64,000 nucleotides of DNA from Actinomycetota bacterium (GCA_050692985.1 JBOGVZ010000047.1:76533-140532), one strand, 5' to 3'. Shown: positions 10,103 through 60,924, numbered from the stretch's first letter. The notes: generated by a model from the sequence alone, not told the origin. Translations and numbers: made by a program.

Positions 10103-10170
10103 GGCGGATCCTCTCCCGGGCGTTCGATCCCAGATTGTCCCGCAGCTGCCGGTCCGGCGCCTACCCGTTT

Positions 10171-10244
10171 CACTGGGGGGTTCGCTCGCTGTTCACTCTG
10201 ACGCTTCCATCGCCCCCGGCGAGCTACACCCCCCGGACCCCCCC
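10171..10244 (+). repeat. Copy A of a ~73-nt GC-rich hairpin repeat (CACTGGGGGGTTCGCTCGC...GGCGAGCTACACCCCCCGGACCCCCCC)
   Basis: Shares its 5' 20 nt and 3' ~26 nt with the copies at 26232, 56804, 56878 and, inverted, 34454. The central ~27 nt are unique. Its 3' end supplies the last codons and the TAG stop of the P450 gene (...LRVRGGVRGV*). Confidence 0.8.
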
Positions 10245-11525
10245 GCGGACCCGGAGCTCCTTCAGGCCGCGGATGATGTAGTTGGGCTTCCACTCGGGCT
10301 CCTCCACCAGCTCCAGGCCCGGGAGGCGCCGCAGCAGCGTGCCGAACGAGGTCTCCAGCTCCACCCGGGCCAGCGGCGCCCCCAGGCAGAAGTGGATCCC
10401 GGCGCCGAACGACATGTGGGGGTTCTTCGGCCGGCCCACGTCGAGCTCGTCGGGACGCTCGAACACCTCGGGGTCGCGGTTGGCGCTGCCGAACAGCAGG
10501 GCCAGCTCCTGTCCCTTCGGGATCTCCACGCCGTGGACCTCCACGTCCTCCAGCACCCACCGCTCGAACATCTGGAGGGGGGTGTCGTAGCGCATCAGCT
10601 CCTCGATGGCCGTGCGCACCAGGGAGTGGTCGTCGTGGAGGCGTTGCAGCTCGCCCGGGTTGCGGAACAGCGACCACCACCCGTTGCCGGTGACGTTGAC
10701 CGTGGCCTCGTGGCCGGCGTTGAGCAGCAGGACGCAGGTGCCGATCAGCTCGTCCTTGGTGAGCCGGTGTCCCTCCTCCAGCACCTGGGTCAGGGCCGAG
10801 ATCAGGTCCTCCCGCGGGTCCCGGCGGCGCTCCCTCGATAGCCCGCGGAGGTAGGCGGAGAACTCCTCGCTGGCGGTGACCGCGGCCCGGGCGTCCTCGT
10901 CGGTGGGGTTGAGCTCGTACATCCGGCAGATCTCCGCCGACCACGGACGGAGGAGGTGGCGGTCGGACTCGGGCACGCCCAGCATCTCGGCGATCACCGC
11001 CACCGGCAGCGGCTCGGCCAGCTCCCTGATGAGGTCGAACTCGCCGGCGCCGGCCACCCCGTCTACCAGCTCCTCCATCAGGCCCTGGACGAACGGGCGC
11101 AGGCCCTCGACCATCCGCGGGGTGAACGCCTTCGACACCAGCTTCCTCACCCGGGAGTGGTCGGGAGGCTCCATGTCCAGGATCCCGGATCGGATCAGAT
11201 GCCAGAAGGGCGCGTGCCACTCGGGCTCCTCGGGCCGGCCCATCTCCGCGTGGGTGGCCATGTGGTGGTACGTCCGGCCGAACCGCCGGTCGCGGAGCAA
11301 GCCGTTCACGTCGTCGTGGCGGGGCACGATCCACTGGTTCGTGCCCTCGAAGTAGTGGATGGGCCCGGCCCGGCGCAGCGACGCGTAGACCGGATAGGGA
11401 TCGGCCACGAACTCCACTGCCCACGGGTCGAACCCCAGGGCCGCGGGATCGGCCATTCCGTGTGGCGCGGGGACCTGCGGCGCGTGCGCCATCAGCGGGA
11501 GTGTAGCGCGGGCGCTCGGCGTCAC
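10224..11525 (-). CDS. Cytochrome P450
   Basis: ...AGHEATVNVTGNGWW... EELMRYDTPLQ ... FGAGIHFCLGAPLARVE (heme-binding Cys loop) ... The start may be the internal Met (MADPAALGFDPW). Confidence 0.9.
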   Translation of the reverse strand: MTPSARATLPLMAHAPQVPAPHGMADPAALGFDPWAVEFVADPYPVYASLRRAGPIHYFEGTNQWIVPRHDDVNGLLRDRRFGRTYHHMATHAEMGRPEEPEWHAPFWHLIRSGILDMEPPDHSRVRKLVSKAFTPRMVEGLRPFVQGLMEELVDGVAGAGEFDLIRELAEPLPVAVIAEMLGVPESDRHLLRPWSAEICRMYELNPTDEDARAAVTASEEFSAYLRGLSRERRRDPREDLISALTQVLEEGHRLTKDELIGTCVLLLNAGHEATVNVTGNGWWSLFRNPGELQRLHDDHSLVRTAIEELMRYDTPLQMFERWVLEDVEVHGVEIPKGQELALLFGSANRDPEVFERPDELDVGRPKNPHMSFGAGIHFCLGAPLARVELETSFGTLLRRLPGLELVEEPEWKPNYIIRGLKELRVRGGVRGV

Positions 11526-26158: not shown

Positions 26159-26231
26159 ATGGGACCATTGTTACCCACGCCCGGGCCCCAGGAACGGAAC
26201 CGGTGCCCCCCCCGGACCCCGGGGCCCCCCT

Positions 26232-26305
26232 CACTGGGGGGTCCGCTCGCCTTCCGAGTCCTCGGCCCGGCGGTGGTCGGGGCGAGCTACCCCCCCGGGC
26301 CCCCC
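26232..26305 (+). repeat. Copy B of the ~73-nt hairpin repeat (CACTGGGGGGTCCGCTCGCC...GGGGCGAGCTACCCCCCCGGGCCCCCCGG), preceded by a partial 3'-arm remnant (26203-26227)
   Basis: Sits in the divergent intergenic region between the SCP2-hydrolase start (26158, minus) and the nitroreductase start (26324, plus). Confidence 0.8.
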
Positions 26306-26323
26306 GGTCCGCCTCCCGGTAGG

Positions 26324-32586: not shown

Positions 32587-33246
32587 ATGCGACTCCCCTC
32601 CCGCCTGGGCGTGTACGTGGTGACCTCCGCGGACCTGGTGCCCGGCCGCGGTCACCTCGAGGTGGCCCGGGCGGCCCTCCGGGGCGGGGCCGGGGCGATC
32701 CAGCTGCGGGCCCCCGAGCTGGCCGACGGCGACCTCCTTCCGCTGGCCCGGGAGCTGGCCGCGACCTGTGGGAACGCCGGGGCCCTGTTCGTGGTGAACG
32801 ACCGGGTGGACGTGGCGTTGGCGGCCGGCGCCGACGGCGCCCACCTGGGCCAGGGCGACGAGCTCGAGCGGGCCCGCGACCGGCTGGGGCCGGAGCGAGT
32901 GCTGGGGGTCAGCGTGGCCGACCCCGCCCAGGCGGCGGCCGCCCAGGCCGCCGGGGCCGACTACCTGGGGGTCACGGTGTGGCCCACCGGAACCAAGCCG
33001 GAGGCGATCCCGGTGGGGCTGGACGGGCTCCGGGCTGTCGTGGCGGCGGCCGGCGTCCCGGTGGTGGCCATCGGTGGGATCGACGAGCGCACCGCCCCCC
33101 CGGCCCTGGCCGCCGGGGCGTCGGGCGTAGCGGTGGTCTCGGCCGTGGGTGCCGCCCCCGACCCGGAGGCCGCCACCCGTAGGCTGGTCGACGTGGTGAA
33201 GAGGACCCGGACCGAGGCGGCCGCCTCGGAGGAGGACGTGGGATGA
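32587..33246 (+). CDS. thiE: Thiamine-phosphate synthase
   Basis: ...GAIQLRAPELADGDLLPLARELAATCGNAGALFVVNDRVDVALAAGADGAHLGQ...ADYLGVTVWPTGTKPEAIPVGLDGL...VVAIGGI. Confidence 0.85.
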   Translation: MRLPSRLGVYVVTSADLVPGRGHLEVARAALRGGAGAIQLRAPELADGDLLPLARELAATCGNAGALFVVNDRVDVALAAGADGAHLGQGDELERARDRLGPERVLGVSVADPAQAAAAQAAGADYLGVTVWPTGTKPEAIPVGLDGLRAVVAAAGVPVVAIGGIDERTAPPALAAGASGVAVVSAVGAAPDPEAATRRLVDVVKRTRTEAAASEEDVG

Positions 33247-34304
33247 GCGAAGAGCAGCGCCCCGGAAAGGTCACCCCCGAGCTGTTCGAGCGATACATCT
33301 TCCGGTACCTCGGTGCCCCGGACCCCGAGGTGCTCCAGGGCCCCCGCCACGGCGTGGACGTGGGCGTGGTCCGGGTGGCTCCGGGGGTGGCCATGGCCCT
33401 GACCGCCGACCCGGTGTTCATCGTGCCAGCGTACGGGTGGGACCGGGCGGCGTGGTTCGCGGTGCACATCCTGGCTTCCGACGCCGCCGTCAGCGGGCTG
33501 CCGCTGCGGTGGATGGCCGTGGACCTCAACCTGCCGGTGGCCACCACCGACGACGACCTGGCCGCGATCTGGACGGCGTTCTCCGGGACGTGCCGCGATC
33601 TCGGGATCGCCGTGGTCACCGGCCACACCGCCCGATACGACGGCTGTGACTGGCCGATGGTGGGCGGCGCGGTGTGCGCGGCCCTGGGGCCCGAGGATGC
33701 CTACGTGACCCCGGCGATGGCCCGGCCGGGCGACGCCGTGGTGGTCACCAAGGGCCCGGCCATCGAGGCCACCGCGCTGTTCGCCGCCACGTTCCCCGAC
33801 CGGCTGGCCGCGGGCGTCGGGGCCGACGTGGCCAAGGCCGCCGACGCGCTGTTCGAGCAGATGACCGTGGTCCCCGAGGCCGCGGTGGCCGCGGCGTACG
33901 GACTGCGAGACGCTGGCGTCACGGCCATGCACGATGCCACCGAAGGGGGTCTGGTAGGCGGGCTGGCGGAGGTGGCCACCGCGTCCGAGGTGGGCCTGCG
34001 GATCGACCTGGCCGCGGTTCCCGTTCCCCCCGAGGTCCGGGCGGTGTGCGACCACGTGGGCATCGACCCGTTCACCTCGATCTCCGAGGGCACGCTGATC
34101 GCCACCGTACGGCCCGGCCACGCCGACGGCTACGTTGGGGCGTTGGGAGAGGCGGGGATCGAGGGGGCCGTGATCGGCGAGGTCACCGAGCCGCAGGCGG
34201 GCACGGTCCTGGTCGACGGCGGCGCCAAGCGGCCGCTGGAGCACCCGGGCCTGGACCCGTTCTGGGATGCGTTCGGCCGGTGGGCCAGGGAGGCGGCCGG
34301 CTGA
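33243..34304 (+). CDS. AIR-synthase-related (PurM-superfamily) protein, ThiL/HypE-like
   Basis: Overlaps the thiE stop (ATGA). PurM N- and C-domain motifs (..HGVDVGVV.., ..AMHDATEGGLVGGLAEVA..). Confidence 0.65.
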   Translation: MSEEQRPGKVTPELFERYIFRYLGAPDPEVLQGPRHGVDVGVVRVAPGVAMALTADPVFIVPAYGWDRAAWFAVHILASDAAVSGLPLRWMAVDLNLPVATTDDDLAAIWTAFSGTCRDLGIAVVTGHTARYDGCDWPMVGGAVCAALGPEDAYVTPAMARPGDAVVVTKGPAIEATALFAATFPDRLAAGVGADVAKAADALFEQMTVVPEAAVAAAYGLRDAGVTAMHDATEGGLVGGLAEVATASEVGLRIDLAAVPVPPEVRAVCDHVGIDPFTSISEGTLIATVRPGHADGYVGALGEAGIEGAVIGEVTEPQAGTVLVDGGAKRPLEHPGLDPFWDAFGRWAREAAG

Positions 34305-34453
34305 GGGCGGAGCTCCCCGGCCGGCCCGCCCACCGAAACACCTACCCGTCGAGGTCGACCTCGGACGGCGCCGATGACCCGGCGAGGTCGTGAACCGGAG
34401 CCCACTCGGGGCCGTCCCAACGAGGGAACCAGACGGAAGGAGCGGCGATGAAC

Positions 34454-34526
34454 GGGGGGTCCGGGGGGGTAGCTCGCCCGGGGGCGGGATGGCGGCGATC
34501 CGGACGGCGAGCGAACCCCCCAGCGA
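34454..34526 (-). repeat. Copy E of the ~73-nt hairpin repeat, inverted orientation (GGGGGGTCCGGGGGGGTAGCTCGCC...GGCGAGCGAACCCCCCAGCG)
   Basis: Lies immediately upstream of the cupredoxin start. The 5'-terminal CACTG is changed to CGCTG. Confidence 0.75.
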
Positions 34527-34550
34527 GAGGGGGGTCCGGGAAGGTAGCGG

Positions 34551-35083
34551 TGCTGGTGATGGCCGCGGGGATGGCCGCGGCGGGGATGGCCGGACCGACC
34601 CCTGCCGGCGCCAGCGGTGGCGGTGGGTGCGGGGCACCGCTCACCGAGGCCACCGGGACCACGGTGGCGATCCGGGGGTTCTGCTTCACCCCGACCGTGC
34701 TCCACGTCTCGCCGGGGACCGACGTCTCGTTCGTGAACCGGGACGGGGTGCCCCACAACGTGCTCGGGGCGGGCGGCGAATGGGGCAGCTTCGAACGACT
34801 GCGACGCGGCGTCCCCACGACCTACCGGTTCGAGGCCTCGGGGACGTTCGCCTTCAGCTGCGTGTACCACCCGGGCATGGTCGGCACGGTCGTGGTGGGT
34901 GACGGCGTGGGGGCCGGGTCGGCGGTGGACATCCGGCCGGTGGCCGCGACGCGCCCAGCCCGAGAGCCGGCCCAGCAGGCCACCACCGGATGGAGGATGG
35001 CCACCGCGATCAGCGTGGGGATGCTGCTGCTCACGGTGGCGGCCGCGGCCGGCCAGCGTCGCCACCTGCTCGGGCGGCGCTAA
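34551..35083 (+). CDS. Cupredoxin-fold blue-copper protein (amicyanin/plastocyanin-like) with signal peptide
   Basis: Likely GTG after GGAAGG. ...FCFTPTVLHVSPGTDVSFVNRDGVPHNV...TFAFSCVYHPGMVGTVVV (His...Cys-x2-His-x2-Met copper ligands). The N-terminal 35 codons of ORF 34448.. are the repeat read through. Confidence 0.7.
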
Positions 35084-35132
35084 TCGCACAGCGGGGATAT
35101 CCTCGCCGTGCGTGTCATCTCTGCGGCGGAGC

Positions 35133-36287
35133 ATGGCCCTGGCGGCCGCGGTCCTCACGGTGTCCGCGTCGTGCCAGGCACGCGAGGAGCCGCCCCCGCC
35201 CTCGCCCCCGCCTCCCACGGCGGCCCCGGATGGATCTCCCACCCCCACGCCCACCCGGGAGCCCCTCCGGCTCCGCCTGGTCAGGGTGGCCACCCTGGAC
35301 CAGCCGCTGGCCCTGTCCGTGCGGTCCGGCGACCCGGCCACGTACGTGGCCCAGAAGACCGGCCAGCTCGTGGCGCTGCGGGCCGGCCGGAGCGAGGTGG
35401 TGCTCGACCTCTCCGCCGAGGTCTCCCAGGGCGGCGAGCAGGGTCTGTTGGGCCTGGCATTCTCGCCGGACGGCCGGTTCCTGTACGTCAACTACACGGA
35501 CCGCGGCGGTGACACCCATGTCCTGGAGTTCGAGATGCGGGGGGAAGGCGTGGCCACCGGCACCCGCAGGGAGGTCTTGTCGGTGGGCCAGCCGTACGGG
35601 AACCACAACGGCGGGCACCTGGCCTTCGGCCCCGACGGCTACCTGTACGTCGGGCTGGGCGACGGGGGCAGCGCCGGCGACCCGCAGGGCAACGCCCAGG
35701 ACCCGGGCACGCTGCTGGGGAAGATGCTGCGGATCGACCCCAGGCCGAGGGGCGGGCAACCCTACACGGTCCCGGCGGACAACCCGTTCACGGGTCGCCG
35801 GGGCGCCCGGCCGGAGATCTGGGCGCTGGGGCTGCGGAACCCGTGGCGCTACTCGTTCGACCGGAAGACCGGCGACCTGTGGATCGCCGACGTGGGCCAG
35901 AGCGCCCGGGAGGAGGTCAACCGCCAGCCCGCGGACTCCACCGGCGGGGAGAACTATGGATGGGACCGGCTCGAAGGCACCCGTCCGTTCGAGGGAGAGG
36001 CGCCCTCGGACGCCGTCGCCCCGGTGTTCGACTACGGCCGCGACGTGGGCGGCACCGTCATCGGCGGGTTCGTCTACCGGGGCAGCGCCATCCCCGCCCT
36101 CCGGGGCGGCTACGTGTTCGGGGACTTCTTCTCCGACCGCCTGATGGTCCTCCGGGTCCGGGATGGCGACGTCCGGTTCCGCCGGCTGCGCGTGGGCGTG
36201 CCCAACCTCAGCTCGTTCGGCGAGGACGAGGACGGCGAGCTCTACGTGTTCTCGCTGTCCGGCGGGGTCTTCCGCCTGGAGGGCTGA
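35133..36287 (+). CDS. PQQ-dependent soluble sugar (glucose/sorbosone) dehydrogenase-family beta-propeller lipoprotein
   Basis: MALAAAVLTVSASC..., then ...QGGEQGLLGLAFSPDGRFLYVNYTD...YGNHNGGHLAFGPDGYLYVGLGDGGSAGDPQGNAQ...GLRNPWRYSFD...GDLWIADVGQ. Confidence 0.8.
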   Translation: MALAAAVLTVSASCQAREEPPPPSPPPPTAAPDGSPTPTPTREPLRLRLVRVATLDQPLALSVRSGDPATYVAQKTGQLVALRAGRSEVVLDLSAEVSQGGEQGLLGLAFSPDGRFLYVNYTDRGGDTHVLEFEMRGEGVATGTRREVLSVGQPYGNHNGGHLAFGPDGYLYVGLGDGGSAGDPQGNAQDPGTLLGKMLRIDPRPRGGQPYTVPADNPFTGRRGARPEIWALGLRNPWRYSFDRKTGDLWIADVGQSAREEVNRQPADSTGGENYGWDRLEGTRPFEGEAPSDAVAPVFDYGRDVGGTVIGGFVYRGSAIPALRGGYVFGDFFSDRLMVLRVRDGDVRFRRLRVGVPNLSSFGEDEDGELYVFSLSGGVFRLEG

Positions 36288-40752: not shown

Positions 40753-41040
40753 CTACCTGGCGTCGGTGGTGTCGCTGTCCCCCGACTCGTCGGTGGTGTC
40801 GTCGTCGGCGTCGGTCGTATCGGTGTCGTCGACGGCGTCGGTGGTATCGGTGTCGCCACCACCGCCCTCGTCCGCGGCGTCGGTGGTATCCGAGTCGGTC
40901 CCGTCCTGGTCGGCGGCATCGGTCGTGTCGGTGCTGTCCGCGTCCCGGGTGTCCGGGTCCTCAACCGAGGCCGATGCGTTGCCGCCGGCAAGCGAGACGG
41001 TCCGGATGTCCTCGTCGGTGAGCTTCGTGGGGTCGGCCAT
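40753..41040 (-). CDS. Small highly acidic Asp/Thr-rich repeat protein (TDTTDA-type repeats), intrinsically disordered
   Basis: Strong SD (AGAGGAGATGGC-ATG). MADPTKLTDEDIRTVSLAGGNASASVEDPDTRDADSTDTTDAADQDGTDSDTTDAADEGGGGDTDTTDAVDDTDTTDADDDTTDESGDSDTTDAR. Confidence 0.55.
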   Translation of the reverse strand: MADPTKLTDEDIRTVSLAGGNASASVEDPDTRDADSTDTTDAADQDGTDSDTTDAADEGGGGDTDTTDAVDDTDTTDADDDTTDESGDSDTTDAR

Positions 41041-51112: not shown

Positions 51113-51187
51113 TGCGCCCGGAGGGACTCGAACCCCCAACCTCCTGATCCGTAGTCAGACGCTCTGTCCAAATTGAGCTACGGGCGC
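51113..51187 (-). tRNA. tRNA-Arg (anticodon ACG)
   Basis: Reverse complement GCGCCCGTAGCTCAATTTGGACAGAGCGTCTGACTACGGATCAGGAGGTTGGGGGTTCGAGTCCCTCCGGGCGCA folds as a cloverleaf with 7-bp acceptor stem, anticodon loop CTACGGA and a GTTCGAGTC T-loop. CCA is not encoded. Confidence 0.85.
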
Positions 51188-51191
51188 TGCG

Positions 51192-51280
51192 CGGAGGCGG
51201 TGCGATTTGAACGCACGAGGGGCTTGCACCCCAACGGGATTAGCAATCCCGCGCCATAGACCAGACTAGGCGACGCCTCC
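51192..51280 (-). tRNA. tRNA-Ser (anticodon GCT), class II with long variable arm
   Basis: Reverse complement GGAGGCGTCGCCTAGTCTGGTCTATGGCGCGGGATTGCTAATCCCGTTGGGGTGCAAGCCCCTCGTGCGTTCAAATCGCACCGCCTCCG, with anticodon stem CGGGA/TCCCG and loop TTGCTAA. Confidence 0.85.
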
Positions 51281-51365: not shown

Positions 51366-52229
51366 ATGGCCCAGGGCACCAGCGGCACCCCCTCACCCGT
51401 CCTGGGGATCGCGGGTCCCGTCATCCTCATCGGTGGCGCCGAGGACAAGCGGCGCGACAAGGTCATCCTGAGCCGGTTCGTGGAGCTTGCCGGAGGCCCG
51501 AACGCCAACATCGTGGTCATCAGCACCGCCTCGACGTTCGCGGAGCTGGCGGCGGAACGGTACGTCGAGCTGTTCTCCGAGCTGGGAGCCGGAGTCGTCA
51601 CCGGCGTCCGCCCCCTGTCACGTGAGGAGGCCAACGACCCCGCCACGGTCGCCCCCCTGGCCACGGCCACGGGGGCGTTCCTCACCGGCGGCAACCAGGT
51701 CCGGCTGATCTCCACGGTCGGGGGGACCCGGCTCGAGGACGCCCTGGCCTCGGCCCGTGACCGCGGGGCGGCCATCGCGGGGACCTCGGCCGGGGCGAGC
51801 GCCGCGGCCACCCACATGGTGGCCTTCGGCCGGTCGGGGGCCAGCCCCAAGCACCGCATGATCCACATCTCGGCCGGACTGGGCCTGGTGGACGGGATCA
51901 TCGTGGACCAGCACTTCGAGCAGCGCGGACGCATGGGCCGGCTCCTGGCCGCGGTGGCCCTGTCCCCCCGCTTGATCGGCATCGGGCTCGACGAGGACAC
52001 GGCCGCCATCATCTGGCCGGACCGCACGCTGGAGGTGATCGGGAAGGGGTCGGTGACGATCGTGGACGGCTCCCAGATCGCCACGGACTCGTTCCAGATG
52101 AAGGGCCACCGCCCCATGATGGTCTCCGGGGCCATCGTCCATGCCCTCCCCACGGGGTTCCGGTTCGACCTGCGGGGGCGGCGGCTGATCGAGGTGAGCG
52201 AGCCCGAGGTCCGGGAGGCCTCCGAGTGA
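51366..52229 (+). CDS. cphB: Cyanophycinase (S51 peptidase)
   Basis: ...PVILIGGAEDKRRDKVILSRFVELAGG...AIAGTSAGASAAATHM (Ser nucleophile)...GLGLVDGIIVDQHFEQRGR. An alternative upstream GTG start exists at 51294. Confidence 0.85.
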   Translation: MAQGTSGTPSPVLGIAGPVILIGGAEDKRRDKVILSRFVELAGGPNANIVVISTASTFAELAAERYVELFSELGAGVVTGVRPLSREEANDPATVAPLATATGAFLTGGNQVRLISTVGGTRLEDALASARDRGAAIAGTSAGASAAATHMVAFGRSGASPKHRMIHISAGLGLVDGIIVDQHFEQRGRMGRLLAAVALSPRLIGIGLDEDTAAIIWPDRTLEVIGKGSVTIVDGSQIATDSFQMKGHRPMMVSGAIVHALPTGFRFDLRGRRLIEVSEPEVREASE

Positions 52230-55081
52230 GCCGGCCCGCCCGATCCTCCCCGAAGGGGTCCCGCACGGCGTCCAGGGATGCCCGGGCCAGGGCCAAGCGC
52301 GAGCCGGCCTCCAAGAAGCCGCCGGCCCGGCCCGACCTGAAGATCCTCAAGACCCAGGTGTTCCGGGGACCAAACTACTACTCGTACGACCCCACCATCC
52401 GCCTGCTGGTCGACCTGGGCTCGCTGGAGCACTGGCCGTCGAACACGATCAAGGGCTTCAACACGGCGCTGCGGGAGCTGCTCCCGGGTATGGCGGACCA
52501 CTCCTGCTCGCTGGGACGGCAGGGCGGCTTCCTGGAGCGGCTCGACGACGGCACCTGGCTGGGCCACGTGGCCGAGCACGTGGCCCTGGAGCTCCAGCGC
52601 GAGGCGGGGACGCACATCTACCGGGGCAAGACCCGCAGCGCCGGAGCCCCCGGCCGCTACAACGTGATCTACGGGTACAGCGAGGAGCGGGTGGGGCTGG
52701 CCGCCGGCACCCTGGCCGTGCGGCTGGTCAACCACCTGGTCGAGGCCGAGGAGGCATTCGACTTCCTGGCCGAGCTGGAGAGGCTCATCCTCCTGGCGGA
52801 GCGGCGGGCCTTCGGCCCATCCACCCAGGCGCTCATCGACGAGGCCGCCAGCCGCGACATCCCCTACATCCGGCTCAACGAGGCGTCCCTGGTCCAGCTC
52901 GGTCAGGGCACCTACCAGCGGCGGATCCGGGCCACGATGACCTCGCTCACCCCGGCCCTGGCCGTGGACATAGCCGGAGACAAGAACCTCACGAACCGGT
53001 TGCTGGGTGCCGCCGGGTTGCCGGTCCCCCGCTCGGAGACCGTGCGCACCGAGGACGACGCGGTGGCCGCGGCCAAGCGGATCGGGTTCCCCGTGGTGAC
53101 CAAGCCCCTGGACGGGAACCACGGCCGCGGGGTGAGCCTGGAGCTCGCCACCGAGCGGGACGTGCGCCGGGGGTGCAGGCGGGCCCGGGACGAGTCCCGC
53201 CGGGGGGTCGTGGTCGTGGAGAGCTACGTGACCGGCAACGACTACCGGGTGCTGGTCATCGGTGGCCACATGGTGGCGGTGGCCCAGCGGGTCCCTGCCC
53301 ACGTGATCGGCGACGGCACCCACACGGTCCGCGAGCTGGCCGACATCGCCAACGAGGACCCCCGTCGGGGCATCGGGCACGAGAAGGTGCTCACCAGGAT
53401 CAAGGTGGACGAGGCCGCCGAGGCCCTGGTCAGGAAGCAGGGCTACGCGCTCGATGACGTCCTCCCCGAAGGCGAGATGGCCCTGCTGGTGGCCACCGGC
53501 AACATGTCCACCGGGGGCAGCTCGATCGACCGCACCTGGGAGGCCCACGAGGAGAACGTGGAGATCGCCGAGGAGGCCGCCCGGGTGGTCGGCCTGGACG
53601 TGGCCGGCATCGACTTCCTGACGCCCGACATCTCCCAGCCCGTCCGGGAGACCGGCGGAGCCATCGTGGAGGTCAACGCGGCCCCCGGCTTCCGGATGCA
53701 CACCCATCCCACCGAGGGCGAGCCGCAGTACGTGGCCAAGCCGGTGGTGGACCTGTTGTTCCCCCCCGGGTCACCGTCCCGGATCCCGATCGTGGCCGTC
53801 ACCGGCTCGAACGGGAAGACCACCACCGTTCGGATGATCGCCCACATCTTCGAGCGCATGGGGCGGAAGGTGGGCGTCACCACCACCGACGGCATCTACG
53901 TCGACGGCCGCCTGGTGCGGAAGGTAGACGCCAGCGGCCCCAAGTCGGCGCTGATGGTCCTCCAGAACCCCCGCGTGGACTTCGCCGTGTTCGAGGTGGC
54001 CCGGGGCGGGATCCTCCGTGAGGGTCTGGGCTACGGGCGAAACGACGTGGCCGTGGTGCTCAACGTCACCGGAGACCACCTGGGGCTGAAGGACGTCGAC
54101 TCCCTGGAGGACCTGGCCGAGGTCAAGCGGGTCGTCGTGGAGGCCGTCCCCCGGACCGGCATGGCCGTGCTCAACGCCGACGACCCCCTGGTGGCCGACA
54201 TGCGCAAGCACACCCGCGGCTCCGTGGTGCTGTTCTCGATGGAGGACCGCAGCGAGCTCGTTGAGCGGTGGGTCCGGCGGGGGAACAAGGCCGTCACGCT
54301 CGAGCGCGACGACCGGGGAGAGCGCATGGTGATCCGCGAGGGTCGCCGGTCGATGCCGATCGCCTACACCCACAACCTGCCGGCCACGTTCAACGGCCGG
54401 GCCCGGATGATGGTCCAGAACGCCCTGGCCGCCGCGGCGGCCGCCCATGCCGCCGGCGCCCACCTCCACGACATCCGCCAGGGGCTGCGGACGTTCACGA
54501 CCTCGATCTTCCAGGCACCGGGACGCCTGAACCTGGTCGACCTGGCCGGGATCAAGGTGCTGATCGATTACGCCCACAACCCCCACGGACTGGAGATGGT
54601 GGGCGACTTCGTGGAGCGCATCACCGCCGAGGCACCCGGTGGCGCCCCGCCCGGTGCGCCGTCGTGGTCGGCCAACCTGCGGGTTGCGGTGGTGGCCACC
54701 CCCGGCGACCGCCGCGAGGACGACATGCGGGAGCTGGGCCGGGTGGCCGCCCGATACTTCGACGACGTCATCATCCGGGAGGACGAGCATCCCCGCGGCC
54801 GCAAGCGCGGTGAGACCGCGGCGTTCATCCTGGAGGGCGTGCAGGAGGCCATGCGGGCCGGTGCCCGGGCGGGCAGCGTGGAGATCGTGCTCGAGGAGGA
54901 CGAGGCCGCCCGGCGGGCCCTGGACCGCAGCCGGCCGGGCGACCTGGTGGTGGTGTGCGTGGACCACGCCGACCGGGTGTGGCGAGAGCTCGAGACCCGC
55001 CGCAAGGCCGCCCTGGGCCTGCCGCCAACGGCCGGCGATGGCCAGGGCGCCGAGATCCCGGAGCTGGCCCCGGAGCTCTGA
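52226..55081 (+). CDS. cphA: Cyanophycin synthetase (N domain + ATP-grasp G domain + Mur-ligase M domain)
   Basis: GTG overlapping the cphB stop. ...VVTKPLDGNHGRGVSLEL (ATP-grasp) ... IVAVTGSNGKTTTVRM (Mur-ligase P-loop) ... IDYAHNPHG. Confidence 0.9.
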   Translation: MSRPARSSPKGSRTASRDARARAKREPASKKPPARPDLKILKTQVFRGPNYYSYDPTIRLLVDLGSLEHWPSNTIKGFNTALRELLPGMADHSCSLGRQGGFLERLDDGTWLGHVAEHVALELQREAGTHIYRGKTRSAGAPGRYNVIYGYSEERVGLAAGTLAVRLVNHLVEAEEAFDFLAELERLILLAERRAFGPSTQALIDEAASRDIPYIRLNEASLVQLGQGTYQRRIRATMTSLTPALAVDIAGDKNLTNRLLGAAGLPVPRSETVRTEDDAVAAAKRIGFPVVTKPLDGNHGRGVSLELATERDVRRGCRRARDESRRGVVVVESYVTGNDYRVLVIGGHMVAVAQRVPAHVIGDGTHTVRELADIANEDPRRGIGHEKVLTRIKVDEAAEALVRKQGYALDDVLPEGEMALLVATGNMSTGGSSIDRTWEAHEENVEIAEEAARVVGLDVAGIDFLTPDISQPVRETGGAIVEVNAAPGFRMHTHPTEGEPQYVAKPVVDLLFPPGSPSRIPIVAVTGSNGKTTTVRMIAHIFERMGRKVGVTTTDGIYVDGRLVRKVDASGPKSALMVLQNPRVDFAVFEVARGGILREGLGYGRNDVAVVLNVTGDHLGLKDVDSLEDLAEVKRVVVEAVPRTGMAVLNADDPLVADMRKHTRGSVVLFSMEDRSELVERWVRRGNKAVTLERDDRGERMVIREGRRSMPIAYTHNLPATFNGRARMMVQNALAAAAAAHAAGAHLHDIRQGLRTFTTSIFQAPGRLNLVDLAGIKVLIDYAHNPHGLEMVGDFVERITAEAPGGAPPGAPSWSANLRVAVVATPGDRREDDMRELGRVAARYFDDVIIREDEHPRGRKRGETAAFILEGVQEAMRAGARAGSVEIVLEEDEAARRALDRSRPGDLVVVCVDHADRVWRELETRRKAALGLPPTAGDGQGAEIPELAPEL

Positions 55082-56247: not shown

Positions 56248-56397
56248 CGCCTGCTAGACCCGTCCGCACCGAGGGCTGCCTGCAGACCATGGCCACGATC
56301 ACGAACCTGTCCCAGACGGGGGGCCGACCCGGCGGCCTCGATGGACCGGGCCTACACGTTGAGCACCGCCGGCGGTAGGTAGGCCCCCCCGGCGCCC

Positions 56398-56793
56398 CTA
56401 CGCGGGGTCGAGGTCCAGGGCGACGGAGTTGATGCAGTACCGCTGGCCCGTGGGGGCGGGGCCGTCGTCGAAGACGTGGCCCAGGTGGGAGCCGCACCTC
56501 CGGCACAGGACCTCGGTGCGGGTCATGCCGTGGCTGTCGTCGGGGCGCAGCTCCACCGCCTGGGCCACGGCCGGCTCGGTGAAGCTGGGCCATCCGGTCC
56601 CCGAGTCGAACTTGGCATCGGAGCGGAACAGCTCCGCGCGGCAGGCCGCGCACCGGTACACCCCCTCGTCCTTGCTGTAGACGTACTGGCCGGTGAACGG
56701 CGGCTCGGTTCCCGCCTTCCGCAGGATCTCGTACTGGGCCGGGGTCAGCCGGGCCTTCCATTCCTCGTCGGTGAGGTTCCGTTCCGTGTCCAT
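56398..56793 (-). CDS. msrB: Peptide-methionine (R)-S-oxide reductase
   Basis: ...[26 protein letters not shown]...[21 protein letters not shown] (CxxC x2 zinc site and the catalytic Cys region). Confidence 0.9.
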
Positions 56794-56803
56794 GGCTCCT
56801 CTC

Positions 56804-56876
56804 CACTGGGGGGTTCGCTCGCCATCCGATCCCGACGCCGACCCACCCGGGGCGAGCTACCCCCCCGGACCCCCCT
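56804..56876 (+). repeat. Copy D1 of the ~73-nt hairpin repeat (CACTGGGGGGTTCGCTCGCC-ATCCGATCCCGACGCCGACCCACCCGG-GGCGAGCTACCCCCCCGGACCCCCC)
   Basis: First unit of a tandem pair between the hydrolase stop (56992) and the msrB start (56793), both on the minus strand. Confidence 0.85.
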
Positions 56877-56877
56877 C

Positions 56878-56950
56878 CACTGGGGGTTCGCTCGCCATCC
56901 GATCCCGACGCCGACCCACCCGGGGCGAGCTATCCCCCCCGGACCCCCCA
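56878..56950 (+). repeat. Copy D2, near-identical tandem duplicate of D1 (including the loop sequence)
   Basis: Differs from D1 by one G fewer in the 5' run and an extra T in the 3' arm. The repeat period is 74 nt. Confidence 0.85.
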
Positions 56951-56991
56951 GGCTACTCCTCGGCGCCGACAACGCTGCCCACGCCCGCTGG

Positions 56992-58293
56992 TCAAGGGGT
57001 GCCGTGGAGGAGCGCGTCCCCGAAGAACGCCAGGACCCGGCGGCCCCACTCCTCGGGGTGCGTCCAGATCGCCCGGGTGTGGCGGGTATCCGGGACCTCC
57101 CACAGGTCGGTGGAGTGGGGCGCCGCGGCCCGGTACCGGCGGTTGAGGAGCGATTCGGTGCGGTCCTCGCCCGAGATCAACAGGACCGGACGGGGCGCGA
57201 TCCGGGCCATGGCCTCCTCGGTCGGGATGGGCGGCTCGGCGGGGGTCATCAGGTCGACCGCGGTGAATCCCAGGAGGTAGAAGGGCAGGCTGAACGCCCC
57301 GCGGAGGCCCAGGGCCCGCGCGTCGGCGAACGAGAACGCCCTGGCGCCCTCGGCCACCACGGCTCCGATCCGGGGGTCCGCAGCCGCCGATGCGAGGGCC
57401 TCCCCGGCCCCCATCGAGAGTCCTAGGACACCGATGCGGCCGGGATCGACGTCGTGCCGGTGGGCCAGGTAGGAGACCGCGGGTTCGACGTCCAGCGCCC
57501 CGAACCAGCCCACGTCCATCGCCACCCCGTCGCTCTGGCCGTGGCCCCTGGCGTCGATCGCCAACACGCCGTAGCCCGCCCGACCGAGCACGGCGATGTG
57601 ATCGAGGACGTCGGACCGCGTCGAGCCCGACCCGTGCAGGACGATCACCGCCGCCGCGTTGTCCGAGGGAACGTACCAGCCCCCGAGGCGGACGCCGTCT
57701 TCCGTTCGCAAGGTGACGTTCCGATAGTCGAGACCGACCTCCGCGGGGGTGCGTCCCGACGGCAACGTGGTGGGCACGTGCGTCATGTACACCGCGACCG
57801 TCAGAGGCAGCATGACGTAGTAGACGAACAGCAGCCCGATCGGCACCGCCAGCACCAGCCGCCGGCGGACCTCGCTGAGGATCACCAACGACCCGAGCGC
57901 CAGGAGGGCGATGCCCGCCGCCAATGAGGAGACGCCCAGGAGATCGAACTCCGACAGGCCCAGCTTGACGACCCGGACCACGGTGATGGCGACGCCGGCC
58001 GCGGTCGCGGCGGCGCCGATGGCCAGGGCAAGGAGGGCCCGCACGAGGCGTCCGGACCGACGGAACCACACCACGGCGATCCCCGACAGCCCCACCGCCA
58101 GCGCCGAATCCCACAGTCGCGCCATCACCGAGCGGTCCGACGTCCTGACGGTGAGACCGGTCAGCAGGTGGAGACACACCAGCGCGATGGCCACCGAGAA
58201 GACGACCGATGGACGGCGCCAGGCGCTGGTGGACGAATCCTCCAACCGGGACGTCGCCACCGGCGACTCGAGGCGATCCTTGCCCGTATCCAC
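56992..58293 (-). CDS. Membrane-anchored alpha/beta hydrolase (about four N-terminal TM helices plus a dienelactone-hydrolase/S9-like domain)
   Basis: ...AAVIVLHGSGSTRSD...VLGLSMGAGEALASAA (GxSxG)... Confidence 0.7.
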   Translation of the reverse strand: MDTGKDRLESPVATSRLEDSSTSAWRRPSVVFSVAIALVCLHLLTGLTVRTSDRSVMARLWDSALAVGLSGIAVVWFRRSGRLVRALLALAIGAAATAAGVAITVVRVVKLGLSEFDLLGVSSLAAGIALLALGSLVILSEVRRRLVLAVPIGLLFVYYVMLPLTVAVYMTHVPTTLPSGRTPAEVGLDYRNVTLRTEDGVRLGGWYVPSDNAAAVIVLHGSGSTRSDVLDHIAVLGRAGYGVLAIDARGHGQSDGVAMDVGWFGALDVEPAVSYLAHRHDVDPGRIGVLGLSMGAGEALASAAADPRIGAVVAEGARAFSFADARALGLRGAFSLPFYLLGFTAVDLMTPAEPPIPTEEAMARIAPRPVLLISGEDRTESLLNRRYRAAAPHSTDLWEVPDTRHTRAIWTHPEEWGRRVLAFFGDALLHGTP

Positions 58294-58465: not shown

Positions 58466-59194
58466 GTGCTGGTGAAGGCATGCCTCAACGGTGGGCGAGC
58501 GAAGCACGAGCACCCGGCCGTGCCCATCTCCCACCCGGAGCTGGCCCTTGACGCCTACCAGGCCGTGGCTGCCGGGGCCGGGGGCGTGCACGTGCACCCC
58601 CGCCAGGCCGACGGGTCCGAGACCGTGGAGGCGGGAGCCTGCGCCCTGGCCCTGACGGCGATCCGCCGGGTGGTCCCCGGGACGCCGGTGGGGCTGACCA
58701 CCGCGGCCTGGATCGAGCCGGACCCCGACCGCCGGCGGTGGGCCGTGGCCCGGTGGGAGGTCCTCCCCGACTTCGCCTCGGTCAACGTGTCCGAGGAGGG
58801 CTGGGGGGACCTGGCCGCCACGCTGCTCGACCTGGGCGTGGGGGTGGAGGCCGGGCTGGCCTCGGTGGAGGACGCCGAGGCCCTGGCCCGGAGTGGGCTG
58901 GCCGGCCGCTGCCTGCGCGTGCTGGTCGAGGTTCCCCAAGAGGACCCGGCGGAGGCCGTGGCCGCGGCGGCACGGATCGAGGCCGCGCTCGACGACGCCG
59001 GGATCGAGGCGCCGCGGCTCCACCACGGAGAGGGCCCGGCCACCTGGGCGGTCGTGGAGGCGGCGGTCCTCCGGGGGCGGGACGTCCGGGTGGGGCTGGA
59101 GGACACCCTGGTCCTCCAGGACGGGAGGCCGGCCAGGGACAACGCCGAGCTCGTCCGCGCGGGCGTCCGCGTGGCGGGCCGGGGACGGGCCTAG
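58466..59194 (+). CDS. BKACE-family (3-keto-5-aminohexanoate cleavage enzyme-like, DUF849) protein
   Basis: VLVKACLNGGRAKHEHPAVPISHPELALDAYQAVAAGAGGVHVHPRQADGSE... aligns with the N-terminus of Kce-type enzymes. GTG start is uncertain. Confidence 0.6.
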   Translation: MLVKACLNGGRAKHEHPAVPISHPELALDAYQAVAAGAGGVHVHPRQADGSETVEAGACALALTAIRRVVPGTPVGLTTAAWIEPDPDRRRWAVARWEVLPDFASVNVSEEGWGDLAATLLDLGVGVEAGLASVEDAEALARSGLAGRCLRVLVEVPQEDPAEAVAAAARIEAALDDAGIEAPRLHHGEGPATWAVVEAAVLRGRDVRVGLEDTLVLQDGRPARDNAELVRAGVRVAGRGRA

Positions 59195-60924
59195 GGACGC
59201 GCTGGGGCCGGGGCCGGGCCCCGAGCCCGGCGGGCCAGCTGGCGGCACCGGGCCGGGCCGACCCGGCGGCCCCCCCGGCCGCGGATCTCCTCGAAGATCT
59301 CCGGCCGCTGCCCCAGGGCGGTCACCGTCACCACGTCTCCGGGTCGGGAGCGCTCCAGCATCCAGCGCAGGGCGTGGAGCTCGTCTGGGAACAGGGGCAC
59401 GTCGGTGGCGCCGCCCTCGAGCGCCCCGGCCCGAAGCCGCTCGACGACATCCTCGGGCCTGCGCCCGCGCAGGTATCTCGTGAGCTCCGAGATGGCCACG
59501 TGGTCCGCCCCGCGGGCGGCGATCAGGCCGAGACCGTGCATGATCCCGTCGGAGCGGTCCCCGGCGGAGCAGTACGAGAGCCACACCTCGGCCCCGGGCC
59601 GGCGCAAGCCGCGGGCGATCTCCACCAGGCCGGACATCCCGGCCTCGTTGTGCGCGTAGTCCACGACCACCACCCGCCCCTCGAGCTCGAACAGGTTTGC
59701 CCGGCCGGGGTTGGCCTCCGGGTCGAGCACGAAGGTGCGCAGTCCTTCGACCACGTCACCGCGAGAGACGCCCGCCCCCAGCGCCGCCGCGGCGGCGGCC
59801 ATGGCGTTCTGGGTGTACGGGCCGGAGATCCCGGCCAGCGTCACGGGGACCGCCTCCACCTCGACCAGCGGCTCGATGGCCGGGCCCGGCAGGAACAGGG
59901 TCAGGTGACGATCGAGGGGGGCCAGGGCCCGGCCGCCCTCCGCCAGGGCCGCCCGGATGGCCGGGTGGTCGGGGTCGAGCGAGAACAGGAACGGCCGGCC
60001 CCGGGCCAGCCGCCGCATGGCCAGGACGCGGGGGTCGTCGGCGTTCAGCACGTCCCAGCCGTGGGGACGGGTGATCCGAGTGATCGTCGACTTGACCTCG
60101 GCCAGCTGGTCGAGGGTGTGGATGCCGTGGAGGCCCAGGTGGTCGGCGGAGACGTTCGTCACCACGGCCACGTCGTTGTGGAGCGTCCCGATGCCCTTGA
60201 GCAGGATGCCGCCCCGGGCCACCTCCAGAACGGCCATCTCCACGCCCGGCTGGGACATTGCCATGGCCGCGCCGGCAGGCCCCGAGTAGTCCCCCTCTTC
60301 CACCATCTCTCCATCGACGTACACCCCGTCCGTGGACGTGTAGGCCACCCGCAGCCCGGCCGCGCGGACCAGGTGGGCCACGAGGCGGACCGTGGTCGTC
60401 TTCCCGTTCGTGCCGGTGACCATCACCACGGGGATGGCCGGTACCGGAACCGAAGGGACCGGTCCCTGGTCGATGGCGGCGATGCGTCCGGCCGCCCCGG
60501 CCACCAGGCGGTCCAGCCCCCGGCGGGAGGTGAGCAGCGTCCCCAGCACGCCGACGACCTCCCTCCCCAGCGCCTCCGCCAGCGCCTGGCGACGCCACGG
60601 GTAGGCCACCACGATCCGGTCGCGCCGCTCGCCCGGCCTGGCCCGGACCGCCAGGCGAACGCCCGAGGCCTCGGCCAGCGCCCTCACCACGTGGGCCGCG
60701 GTGCGGGCCGCGAAGCGGCGGCGCTGCTCGGACCGGGGTTCGCCCGGACGGATCCCCCGCCCGGGGAGCCCAGCCCGCCTGGCGGCGCCCGAGACCTTCG
60801 CCTCGCCGGCATCGAGCCACCCGGGGACCGCGAGCGTGAGCTTGATGGCCGGCCGCGTGAAGTACAGGTTCGGCCCGTGGAGGACCCGCAGCTCCGTCAG
60901 GCGAACCGCCGCCCCCTTCGCCAT
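59191..60924 (-). CDS. CphA-like protein with a cyanophycin-synthetase N domain fused directly to a Mur-ligase domain, no ATP-grasp domain
   Basis: MAKGAAVRLTELRVLHGPNLYFTRPAIKLTLAV (CphA N-domain signature) ... VVMVTGTNGKTTTVRL (Mur-ligase P-loop) ... VVDYAHNEAG. There is no ATP-grasp motif anywhere. It is convergent with and 4-nt overlapping the BKACE gene. Confidence 0.75.
   Translation of the reverse strand: MAKGAAVRLTELRVLHGPNLYFTRPAIKLTLAVPGWLDAGEAKVSGAARRAGLPGRGIRPGEPRSEQRRRFAARTAAHVVRALAEASGVRLAVRARPGERRDRIVVAYPWRRQALAEALGREVVGVLGTLLTSRRGLDRLVAGAAGRIAAIDQGPVPSVPVPAIPVVMVTGTNGKTTTVRLVAHLVRAAGLRVAYTSTDGVYVDGEMVEEGDYSGPAGAAMAMSQPGVEMAVLEVARGGILLKGIGTLHNDVAVVTNVSADHLGLHGIHTLDQLAEVKSTITRITRPHGWDVLNADDPRVLAMRRLARGRPFLFSLDPDHPAIRAALAEGGRALAPLDRHLTLFLPGPAIEPLVEVEAVPVTLAGISGPYTQNAMAAAAAALGAGVSRGDVVEGLRTFVLDPEANPGRANLFELEGRVVVVDYAHNEAGMSGLVEIARGLRRPGAEVWLSYCSAGDRSDGIMHGLGLIAARGADHVAISELTRYLRGRRPEDVVERLRAGALEGGATDVPLFPDELHALRWMLERSRPGDVVTVTALGQRPEIFEEIRGRGGRRVGPARCRQLARRARGPAPAPARP

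What the first reader, a model, noticed from the sequence alone, without database searches (positions are those of the whole stretch)
56797..56992. Tandem duplicated hairpin elements D1-D2 between the hydrolase stop and the msrB start
Two near-identical 73/74-nt units sit head-to-tail, directly after the stop of the membrane hydrolase gene and about 10 nt upstream of the msrB start codon on the same (minus) strand. The msrB transcript would therefore begin with two stable GC hairpins unless a promoter lies inside or after them. They may act as a terminator/insulator for the upstream gene and possibly as a translational or RNA-stability module for msrB. Tandem duplication with a conserved loop indicates a recent event.
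Basis: partly seen in the sequence, partly recalled or inferred. Interest (0 to 1): 0.5.

Follow-up and report, generated by a model that had tools for sequence, protein, structure and literature searches.

The report
Tandem pair of dispersed hairpin repeats
The two hairpins in front of msrB are real, but they are a doubled copy of a roughly 75-base repeat scattered through this uncultured actinobacterium and its relatives, not a control element made for msrB.

Summary
The tandem repeat is real: two units at 56801-56949, period 73-74, 97% match. It starts 42 nt after the hydrolase stop. Its C-run ends 14 nt before the msrB ATG.

It is not specific to this locus. A covariance model finds five strong copies in the window and about 95 in 0.52 Mb of loci from 11 uncultured Actinomycetota MAGs. 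Rfam has no match.

On the mRNA-sense strand the unit reads G6-TYC-G7, TAG, a GCTCGCC stem, a 27-29 nt variable loop, GGCGAGC, GRA, C6, then a 7-10 nt tail.

Copies fill gene junctions in the sense orientation (25 versus 4 between co-directional genes). They often supply the upstream gene's TAG stop or are read through in frame. They usually end 30 nt or less before the next start codon. Arrays of 2-3 units are common.

Between orthologous copies the stems and G-motif stay conserved while the loops drift. No transposase lies nearby.

My reading is a new REP/MITE/MIRU-like palindromic repeat family. D1-D2 is a recent local duplication that is co-transcribed with hydrolase and msrB. There is no U-tract and no promoter-like site. 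Any RNA-level role, such as a stability or processing barrier, is inferred and untested.

The parts
56801..56875 (-). Unit D1, next to msrB. In + coordinates: tail 56801-56807, C-run 56808-56813, 3' stem arm 56817-56823, loop 56824-56850, 5' stem arm 56851-56857, TAG 56857-56859, G-motif 56860-56875.
   Evidence: Covariance model R1, 76.1 bits; sequence; inverted repeat I3
56876..56949 (-). Unit D2, next to the hydrolase. Same loop as D1. It has one extra A before the TAG (GGGGGGGATAGC) and a 5-C run instead of 6.
   Evidence: R1, 54.8 bits; TRF; alignment
56797..56805 (-). msrB Shine-Dalgarno GGAGAGGAG, directly after and overlapping D1's tail
   Evidence: Sequence; the same layout is seen at many family members
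56398..56793 (-). msrB (131 aa, PF01641 SelR), the downstream gene
56992..58293 (-). Membrane alpha/beta hydrolase (433 aa, PF02129/PF12146), the upstream gene. Its TGA stop lies 42 nt before D2.
56950..56991 (-). 42-nt spacer between the hydrolase stop and the array
10164..10245 (-). Family copy A. The upstream ORF 10224-11525 ends at the element's own TAG. The ortholog in L021 lacks the element and ends ...RVRF*.
   Evidence: R1, 62.7 bits; filled/empty alignment
26225..26307 (-). Family copy B, followed by a second G-motif (about 26207-26224) and lying 77 nt before the start of gene 24917-26158
   Evidence: R1, 59 bits
34452..34532 (+). Family copy C, between + strand genes 33243-34304 and 34899-36287, followed by a partial G-motif
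   Evidence: R1, 65.5 bits

Best explanation
D1-D2 is a two-unit tandem array of a previously uncatalogued family of small palindromic interspersed repeats. The family resembles REP, MITE and MIRU elements and is confined, as far as sampled, to a clade of uncultured high-GC Actinomycetota.

Shown:
- The unit has a 16-nt G-motif, a TAG, a 7-bp GC stem, a 27-29 nt free-to-vary loop, a C-run and a short tail.
- It occupies gene junctions in the orientation of the flanking genes. It often supplies the upstream stop codon or is translated through in frame, and it ends just before the next ribosome-binding site.
- It forms arrays of 1-3 or more units.
- Stems and G-motif are kept between orthologous copies while loops diverge.

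Inferred:
- The family spread long ago through a trans-acting enzyme that is not encoded nearby, with a preference for G-rich GGNYCNGG-like targets.
- Arrays such as D1-D2 grow and shrink locally by slippage or unequal recombination between the repeated G-motifs.
- At this locus both hairpins are transcribed as part of a hydrolase-msrB mRNA. They leave the msrB ribosome-binding site outside the helix.
- They act at most as a generic RNA punctuation element, meaning an exonuclease or processing barrier that decouples the stability of the two cistrons. They are not a dedicated msrB switch and not a terminator.
For: - Family membership and size: the regex scan of 185,579 species genomes returned 73 loci, 70 of them from 11 Actinomycetota MAGs. 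Model R1 finds 5 copies at 55-76 bits in the window, with the next hit at 20 bits. It finds about 95 copies at 42 bits or more in the loci, then noise at 26 bits or less.
- Anatomy: alignment A2. The G-motif columns were not part of the search pattern yet are at least 90% conserved. Loop length is 27-29 nt in 83 of 86 copies.
- Orientation: between co-directional genes, 25 sense versus 4 antisense under strict coding criteria, or 34 versus 9 with rough gene calls (p=1.7e-4).
- Junction hugging: of 41 arrays with a sense upstream ORF, the stop is the element's TAG in 13, the ORF reads through to +18..+62 in 9, and the stop lies 28 nt or less upstream in 15. The first start codon is a median of about 25 nt downstream.
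- Filled versus empty orthologous sites: L042/L056/L065, L055/L035, window A/L021, L011/L040, L040/L011, L015/L033.
- In situ constraint: orthologous copies differ 2-4% in stems and G-motif but 17-24% in loops (L052/L063; L012/L023 copy 3). There is a compensatory GCTCGCC/GGCGAGC to GCTGGCC/GGCCAGC change.
- Recent events are tandem only: no loops above 0.9 identity at separate loci apart from arrays split across contig ends.
- No U-tract and no promoter-like site at the locus. No Rfam family matches.
Against: - No mobilising enzyme was found. There is no recurrent transposase-like gene near about 86 arrays, no IS200/RAYT-like hit in 0.56 Mb (the queries were recalled from memory, so this is only a lead), and no long version with the same arms.
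- No recent dispersed copies exist, so mobility is inferred only from filled/empty sites.
- Strong in situ conservation of the stems is unexpected for a purely selfish relic. It points to a host-level function or gene conversion that I could not identify.
- The hairpins are not much more stable than composition-matched shuffles in this genome.
- No transcript data exist for any of these organisms, so co-transcription and any RNA role are inference.
- Stem conservation statistics are biased, because most copies were found with a pattern that required perfect stems.
Confidence: 0.6

Rival explanations
1. Host-maintained punctuation signal. The invariant G-motif and stem are the binding site of a dedicated cellular factor on RNA or DNA that marks gene ends and starts. 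This is what was speculated for the mycobacterial TRIT motif. On this reading D1-D2 modulates hydrolase and msrB expression through that factor.
For: - Sequence, not just pairing, of the stems and G-motif is conserved across 12 genomes and between orthologous copies while loops drift.
- Scores are bimodal, with no degenerate tail.
- Position relative to stop and start codons is tight.
- TRIT offers a precedent: 147 conserved palindromes around position -8 of stop codons (PMC3152330).
Against: - No candidate factor is known.
- Presence/absence differs between related genomes at six junctions, so individual copies are dispensable.
- Copy number varies.
- Copies inside ORFs and in divergent regions do not fit a single gene-end role.
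- The stem pattern used for discovery inflates apparent conservation.
Confidence: 0.2
2. Intrinsic (factor-independent) terminator or insulator ending the hydrolase transcript, with msrB transcribed separately.
For: Two GC-rich hairpins lie downstream of a stop codon. Hairpins without U-tails ('I-shaped') have been proposed as actinobacterial terminators (bioRxiv 10.1101/2022.06.01.494293, introduction).
Against: - No T-run follows either hairpin, and the terminator scan finds none.
- There is no room or signal for an msrB promoter in the 14 nt after D1.
- Family copies lie inside reading frames and directly before co-oriented, often overlapping, start codons.
- Under strict coding criteria, arrays in divergent regions (4) are about as frequent as in convergent ones (3). 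The rough gene calls gave 17 versus 8.
- In M. tuberculosis, predicted TRIT and I-shaped terminators overlap only 2-4% of mapped 3' ends.
Confidence: 0.08
3. Locus-specific cis-regulatory leader of msrB, such as a riboswitch, RNA thermometer or redox-responsive attenuator.
For: It sits immediately upstream of the msrB ribosome-binding site. Native folding lowers predicted accessibility of the msrB start region somewhat (0.39 versus 0.53 with the unit deleted).
Against: - The same element precedes unrelated genes, for example at a carbamoyltransferase (pyrB-like) junction and next to glycosyltransferase and response-regulator genes.
- The loop, which is the only place for a ligand pocket, is not conserved.
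- No Rfam family matches.
- There is no family-wide effect on start-site accessibility.
Confidence: 0.04
4. The second copy is an assembly artefact, and only one unit exists in the organism.
For: The MAG contig CDIABC010000002.1 of GCA_975305695.1 is 100% identical in the flanks and carries a single hybrid unit.
Against: - D1 and D2 differ at their junctions, which an artefactual duplication would not create.
- Logan unitigs from SRR27067772 break exactly k-1 nt into the shared core from two distinct junction contexts.
- Arrays of 2-3 units are common in other MAGs.
Confidence: 0.05

Closest known systems
MIRU (mycobacterial interspersed repetitive units)
   Same: - Found in an actinobacterial host.
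- 40-100 bp units in tandem arrays of variable copy number.
- Located between genes of polycistronic operons.
- Transcribed with the operon.
- Open frames whose ends overlap the adjacent genes.
- GC-rich internal inverted repeats.
- Filled and empty sites between species (PMC3184786).
   Different: - No sequence relationship was tested or is evident.
- The present element is a strong hairpin with a variable loop and a conserved 16-nt G-motif.
- It is found in uncultured non-mycobacterial lineages.
- It supplies a TAG stop.
TRIT motif of Mycobacterium (RNIE study)
   Same: A conserved, repeated palindromic motif in an actinobacterium, with about 150 copies. It is positioned very narrowly at stop codons and partly inside coding sequence. 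Its function is unproven and a binding factor is suspected (PMC3152330).
   Different: TRIT is reported as mostly bidirectional and restricted to Mycobacterium. The element here is strongly strand-biased, abuts the next start codon and forms tandem arrays. Homology could not be tested because no TRIT model was available, and Rfam gave no hit.
REP / REPIN elements with RAYT transposases
   Same: - Short GC-rich imperfect palindromes.
- A GTAG immediately 5' of the stem.
- Hundreds of copies, vertically persistent.
- Conserved arms with a less conserved spacer.
- Co-transcribed, with known roles as mRNA stabilisers (PMC3116915, PMC3337134, PMC2817692).
   Different: - No RAYT-like gene was seen near any array.
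- Arrays are direct tandems, not inverted doublets or BIMEs.
- Many copies overlap or lie within ORFs rather than being extragenic.
- The two arms are not themselves palindromes.
RPE (Rickettsia palindromic elements) and other in-frame MITEs
   Same: Palindromic repeats that insert into protein-coding genes in frame and are translated as extra peptide segments (PMC10969869). Here L055, L042, L015 and L052/L063/L031 are read through in frame.
   Different: RPEs are about 100-150 bp, AT-rich and found in Rickettsia. The present element sits mainly at the extreme 3' ends of genes or in junctions and carries a stop codon in one frame.

Membership tests
REP/REPIN-RAYT system | Short GC-rich imperfect palindrome present in many copies | tested here: met
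   13 conserved base pairs, about 100 copies
REP/REPIN-RAYT system | Conserved GTAG (or CGTC) head adjoining the palindrome | tested here: inconclusive
   G-TAG directly precedes the inner stem in nearly all copies. It lies inside the larger hairpin, and its role is unknown.
REP/REPIN-RAYT system | A RAYT (Y1 transposase) gene in the genome, typically flanked by the repeats | tested here: not met
   No recurrent transposase-like gene lies near 86 arrays. tblastn with recalled RAYT and IS608 TnpA sequences gave only noise in 0.56 Mb. Whole genomes could not be searched.
REP/REPIN-RAYT system | Extragenic location; inverted doublets (REPIN/BIME) | tested here: not met
   26 of 41 arrays overlap the upstream ORF. 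Arrays are head-to-tail.
MITE | Terminal inverted repeats, small size, no coding capacity | tested here: met
   The arms GGGGGGG-TA-GCTCGCC and GGCGAGC-GRA-CCCCCC; units of 73-78 nt
MITE | Target-site duplication | tested here: inconclusive
   Many copies are followed by a second G-motif-like sequence, and empty sites carry GGNYCNGG-like sequences. No clean fixed-length duplication could be defined.
MITE | Parent insertion sequence with the same ends | tested here: not met
   No solo arms or long-spaced arm pairs in 559 kb. Whole genomes were not searchable.
MIRU-like intercistronic tandem repeats | 40-100 bp units, tandem, copy number variable, between co-transcribed genes in their orientation, frames overlapping neighbours | tested here: met
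MIRU-like intercistronic tandem repeats | Sequence homology to MIRU consensus / mycobacterial host | not tested
The hosts here are unclassified Actinomycetota MAGs.
Intrinsic terminator | GC hairpin followed by a U-tract | tested here: not met
   0 terminator-like sites in 56300-57300. The hairpins are followed by AGTGGAG.
Any Rfam 15 RNA family | Score at or above the family gathering threshold | tested here: not met
   Only two tRNAs in the whole window. The best local hits have E of about 7-10 and are noise.
Integron attC site | RYYYAAC...GTTRRRY core sites at the ends of the palindrome, in cassette arrays next to an integrase | tested here: not met
   The ends are G6/C6 runs with no GTT core. 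Copies are dispersed among housekeeping genes.

The most novel reading that the evidence does not exclude
The 16-nt G-motif may be an attachment site for an unknown site-specific recombination system that inserts, swaps and excises hairpin 'cassettes' at gene junctions. Alternatively, it and the invariant stem may be the recognition site of a dedicated host factor.

Four observations hint at this:
- Orthologous sites carry unrelated loops (L031 versus L052; L012 versus L023 copies 1-2).
- One of only three solo G-motifs in 559 kb sits exactly at the empty orthologous site (L056).
- A different insert of about 100 nt is bracketed by G-motifs in L035.
- Stems are conserved in situ.
Probability: 0.15. 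Interest if true: 0.7.

Novelty: new member of a known kind. Interest (0 to 1): 0.38.

Why it matters
For this locus, msrB should not be annotated as having its own leader or riboswitch, and the hairpins should not be annotated as a terminator.

More broadly:
- The family is a marker of an uncultured actinobacterial clade.
- It breaks short-read assemblies, since arrays sit at contig ends.
- It changes protein C-termini by adding GGSGG-type tails or inserts of about 26 residues.
- It offers a natural case for studying how a structured repeat can live inside tightly coupled gene junctions without breaking them.

If the conserved stem binds a factor, the family would parallel the unexplained TRIT motif of mycobacteria.

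Tried and rejected
- **Rfam.** Searched at gathering and at permissive thresholds; nothing.
- **Conserved loop structure.** RNAalifold on 81 copies pairs only the known stems, and the loop has no common fold.
- **Preferred folding strand.** Sense versus antisense MFE shows no overall difference (36 versus 43 copies, p=0.30). Only the SD8036-type subfamily folds better on the antisense strand.
- **Orientation bias explained by ribosome-binding-site masking.** In silico inversion or deletion of the element at 32 loci does not change accessibility of -15..+3 significantly (p=0.18 and 0.69). Rejected.
- **Replication-direction explanation for orientation.** GC skew in the window only follows local gene strand, so it is not informative.
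- **Associated transposase.** ORF clustering, Pfam and recalled RAYT/TnpA queries found nothing.
- **Orthologous hydrolase-msrB junction.** The nearest hydrolase homologs are 66% identical or less and have other neighbours.
- **Exact-sequence literature search.** Only unrelated primer hits.
- **Pairing of the first G-run with the 3' arm.** No covariation between TYC and GRA (read from the alignment).
- **Programmed -1 frameshift at G7-TAG.** Considered because of the slippery run plus stop plus hairpin, but the stem starts too close to the run to act as a stimulator. Not pursued.
- **Correction of an earlier count.** The first ORF classification used GC3 alone and can pick antisense shadow frames; for example, L058 as 'continuous' is unreliable. 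Counts in the report use the stricter.

Full report
**Observation.** The window has 73% GC. Both genes of interest lie on the minus strand. The alpha/beta hydrolase, which has an N-terminal membrane region, occupies 56992-58293. msrB occupies 56398-56793 (PF01641).

Tandem Repeats Finder reports one array at 56801-56949 with period 73, 2.0 copies, 97% matches and score 284. A 57-nt core occurs twice with at most one mismatch, where none is expected by chance. Each unit contains 15-16 nt inverted arms around a 27-nt loop.

D1 (56801-56875) and D2 (56876-56949) have identical loops. They differ by one extra A before the TAG in D2 and by a 5-C versus a 6-C run. A 42-nt spacer separates the hydrolase TGA from D2. 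D1's C-run ends 14 nt before the msrB ATG, and the GGAGAGGAG ribosome-binding site overlaps the unit's tail.

The hairpins are strong in absolute terms, about -40 kcal/mol each. Against dinucleotide shuffles they are only mildly unusual (z -0.9 to -2.2).

**Is the second copy real?** A MAG contig with 100% identical flanks (GCA_975305695.1, L074) has a single unit. That unit is a D2-left/D1-right hybrid.

Two Logan contigs from run SRR27067772 behave differently. One stops exactly 30 nt into the shared core after the D2-type junction. The other starts exactly 30 nt before the D1-type junction. That is the expected behaviour of a k=31 graph at a tandem duplicate. I therefore take the two-copy state as real and the one-copy contig as a likely collapse. 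A true population variant is not excluded.

**It is a family, not a locus feature.** A low-stringency comparison of the unit with the window found partial matches at about 10.2, 26.2 and 34.5 kb. The arms were conserved and the loops were different.

I scanned one genome per species (185,579 species) with a pattern requiring only the arms, GGGGGTYCGCTCGC-N20-45-GGCGAGCTA. It gave 73 loci. Seventy come from 11 MAGs labelled only Actinomycetota, and they often hold 2-3 matches spaced 75-78 nt apart. The three loci from other phyla later scored as noise.

I built a covariance model from 81 copies (A2, R1):
- In the window it finds exactly five copies at 55-76 bits. The next hit scores 20 bits.
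- In 519 kb of loci it finds about 95 copies at 42 bits or more, then nothing above 26 bits.
- Rfam 15 has no match at either threshold.

**Anatomy.** On the strand that is mRNA-sense for the flanking genes, the unit reads G6-TYC-G7 (the 'G-motif'), TAG, GCTCGCC, a loop, GGCGAGC, GRA, C6, then a 7-10 nt tail specific to each genome (AGTGGAG in this one).
- The G-motif was not part of the search pattern, yet it is at least 90% conserved per column.
- Loops are 27-29 nt in 83 of 86 copies. They are purine-rich on the sense strand and have no common fold.
- A few compensatory changes keep the inner stem paired. One example is GCTGGCC/GGCCAGC in both units of an L012 array.
- Neither strand folds consistently better than the other.

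**Genomic niche.** I used strict coding criteria on the flanks: no stops, GC3 of at least 0.8, and GC1 above GC2.
- Arrays between co-directional genes are sense-oriented 25 times and antisense 4 times. Rough gene calls gave 34 versus 9 (p=1.7e-4).
- Of 41 arrays with a sense upstream ORF, the ORF ends at the element's own TAG in 13, including window copy A.
- In 9 the ORF reads through the whole unit and stops 18-62 nt later, often in an ATGA, GTGA or TTGA overlap with the next start.
- In 2 the ORF is called continuous through the unit (L055 and L026). Only L055 was checked against an ortholog.
- In 15 the stop lies 28 nt or less upstream of the element.
- The next start codon follows the C-run at a median of about 25 nt.
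- Neighbouring genes are ordinary housekeeping genes, such as a carbamoyltransferase, glutamine synthetase, aldehyde dehydrogenase, response regulators and ABC ATPases. None is a transposase.

**Filled and empty sites.** Six orthologous comparisons show presence or absence:
- L042 versus L056 and L065. This is a carbamoyltransferase (pyrB-like) gene junction, with the unit in frame inside the last codons of the upstream gene.
- L055 versus L035. A 78-nt unit sits in frame inside a continuous ORF and adds 26 residues.
- Window copy A versus L021. The C-terminus ...RVRF* becomes ...RVRGGVRGV*.
- L011 versus L040, L040 versus L011, and L015 versus L033.

Empty sites tend to carry GGNYCNGG-like sequence. 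One of only three solo G-motifs in 559 kb sits exactly at the empty L056 site. In L035, G-motifs bracket a different insert of about 100 nt. Many single copies are followed by a second, partial G-motif, as in window copies B and C.

**Age and constraint.** Identical loops occur only in tandem neighbours or in arrays split across contig ends (L001/L067, L002/L062, L025/L066). Dispersal is therefore old and tandem duplication is the recent process.

Orthologous copies (L052/L063; L012/L023 copy 3) differ 17-24% in the loop but only 2-4% in the G-motif and stems. The L031 ortholog has an unalignable loop with intact stems.

This suggests constraint, or conversion, acting on the arms in place. The caveat is that most copies were found through intact arms.

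**How it most likely works.** The distribution, orientation bias, junction hugging, translation through the unit and tandem copy-number change are shown. The following steps are inferred:
1. The family spread through a trans-acting enzyme with a taste for G-rich targets.
2. Arrays change length by slippage or unequal exchange between G-motifs.
3. The units are co-transcribed with their neighbours.

At msrB there is no promoter-like or terminator-like site, and there is no room for a promoter after D1. The mRNA should therefore run from the hydrolase through both hairpins into msrB.

Folding 32 loci with the unit native, inverted or deleted shows no significant effect on start-site accessibility: 0.45, 0.41 and 0.44. 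The hairpin behaves as a self-contained insert.

It is untested.

Terminator function is unlikely. There is no U-tract. In M. tuberculosis, hairpin-only and TRIT predictions coincide with only 2-4% of mapped 3' ends.

**Comparison with known families.** The niche and behaviour are closest to MIRUs: actinobacterial, 40-100 bp, tandem and copy-variable, intercistronic, with frames overlapping their neighbours (PMC3184786). They are also close to the TRIT motif, a conserved palindrome hugging stop codons (PMC3152330).

The palindrome with a GTAG head recalls REP/REPIN elements. However, no RAYT was found, arrays are direct rather than inverted, and many copies are not extragenic. In-frame residence recalls RPEs (PMC10969869).

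I file it as a new member of the general class of small interspersed palindromic repeats. I do not file it as a member of any named family.

**Verdict.** It is not an msrB-specific module and probably not a terminator.

Interest is moderate. The locus itself is ordinary once the family is recognised. The family has unusual, unexplained properties: invariant arms with free loops, a built-in stop codon, strict sense orientation and no visible mobilising gene.

Noticed in passing
window 10164-10245, 26225-26307, 34452-34532: Three further copies of the same hairpin element lie in the window, each with a different loop. Copy A supplies the TAG stop of ORF 10224-11525. Copies B and C are followed by an extra partial G-motif.
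   Followed up: yes
L035:1-220 (minus strand), orthologous to L004:780-1010: Two G-motifs (GGGGGGCTCGGGG ... GGGGGGCTCGGAGGG) bracket an unrelated insert of about 100 nt that has its own internal direct repeats (CTAGTTGCCTCA / ATGCCCGCG). L004 has the hairpin unit at that position.
   Followed up: partly
L056 about 2160-2180 (orthologous to the L042 element site): A solo G-motif without a hairpin (GGGGGGCTCCGGGGGGG, coding GGSGG) sits exactly where the related genome carries a full unit. Only three solo G-motifs exist in 559 kb. It could be an excision footprint or a pre-insertion target.
   Followed up: partly
L001/L067, L002/L062, L025/L066, L030 (both ends), L075, L077: Arrays of the element sit at contig ends with identical loops on two different contigs. 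The repeat breaks short-read assemblies, so true array lengths may exceed the 3 copies seen.
   Followed up: partly
window 11663-11718 and 40795-40855: Two other short tandem repeats: a perfect 21-nt repeat (2.7 copies, 100% match) and a 27-nt repeat (2.3 copies, 94% match). They are unrelated in sequence to the hairpin family.
   Followed up: no
window 52226-55081 (+) and 59191-60924 (-): Two cyanophycin-synthetase-type genes flank the region. One is full-length (951 aa, PF18921 plus Mur ligase domains). The other is 577 aa with Mur-ligase domains. A BKACE-family gene and an FMN-dependent dehydrogenase lie between them.
   Followed up: no
window 51113-51187 and 51192-51280 (-): Two adjacent tRNA genes, the only Rfam matches in the window.
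   Followed up: no
L012:7600-7754 vs L023:5441-5598: Orthologous two-unit arrays in two species have unrelated loops. In L012 both units carry a compensated stem variant (GCTGGCC/GGCCAGC). This suggests replacement or conversion of units at a fixed site.
   Followed up: partly
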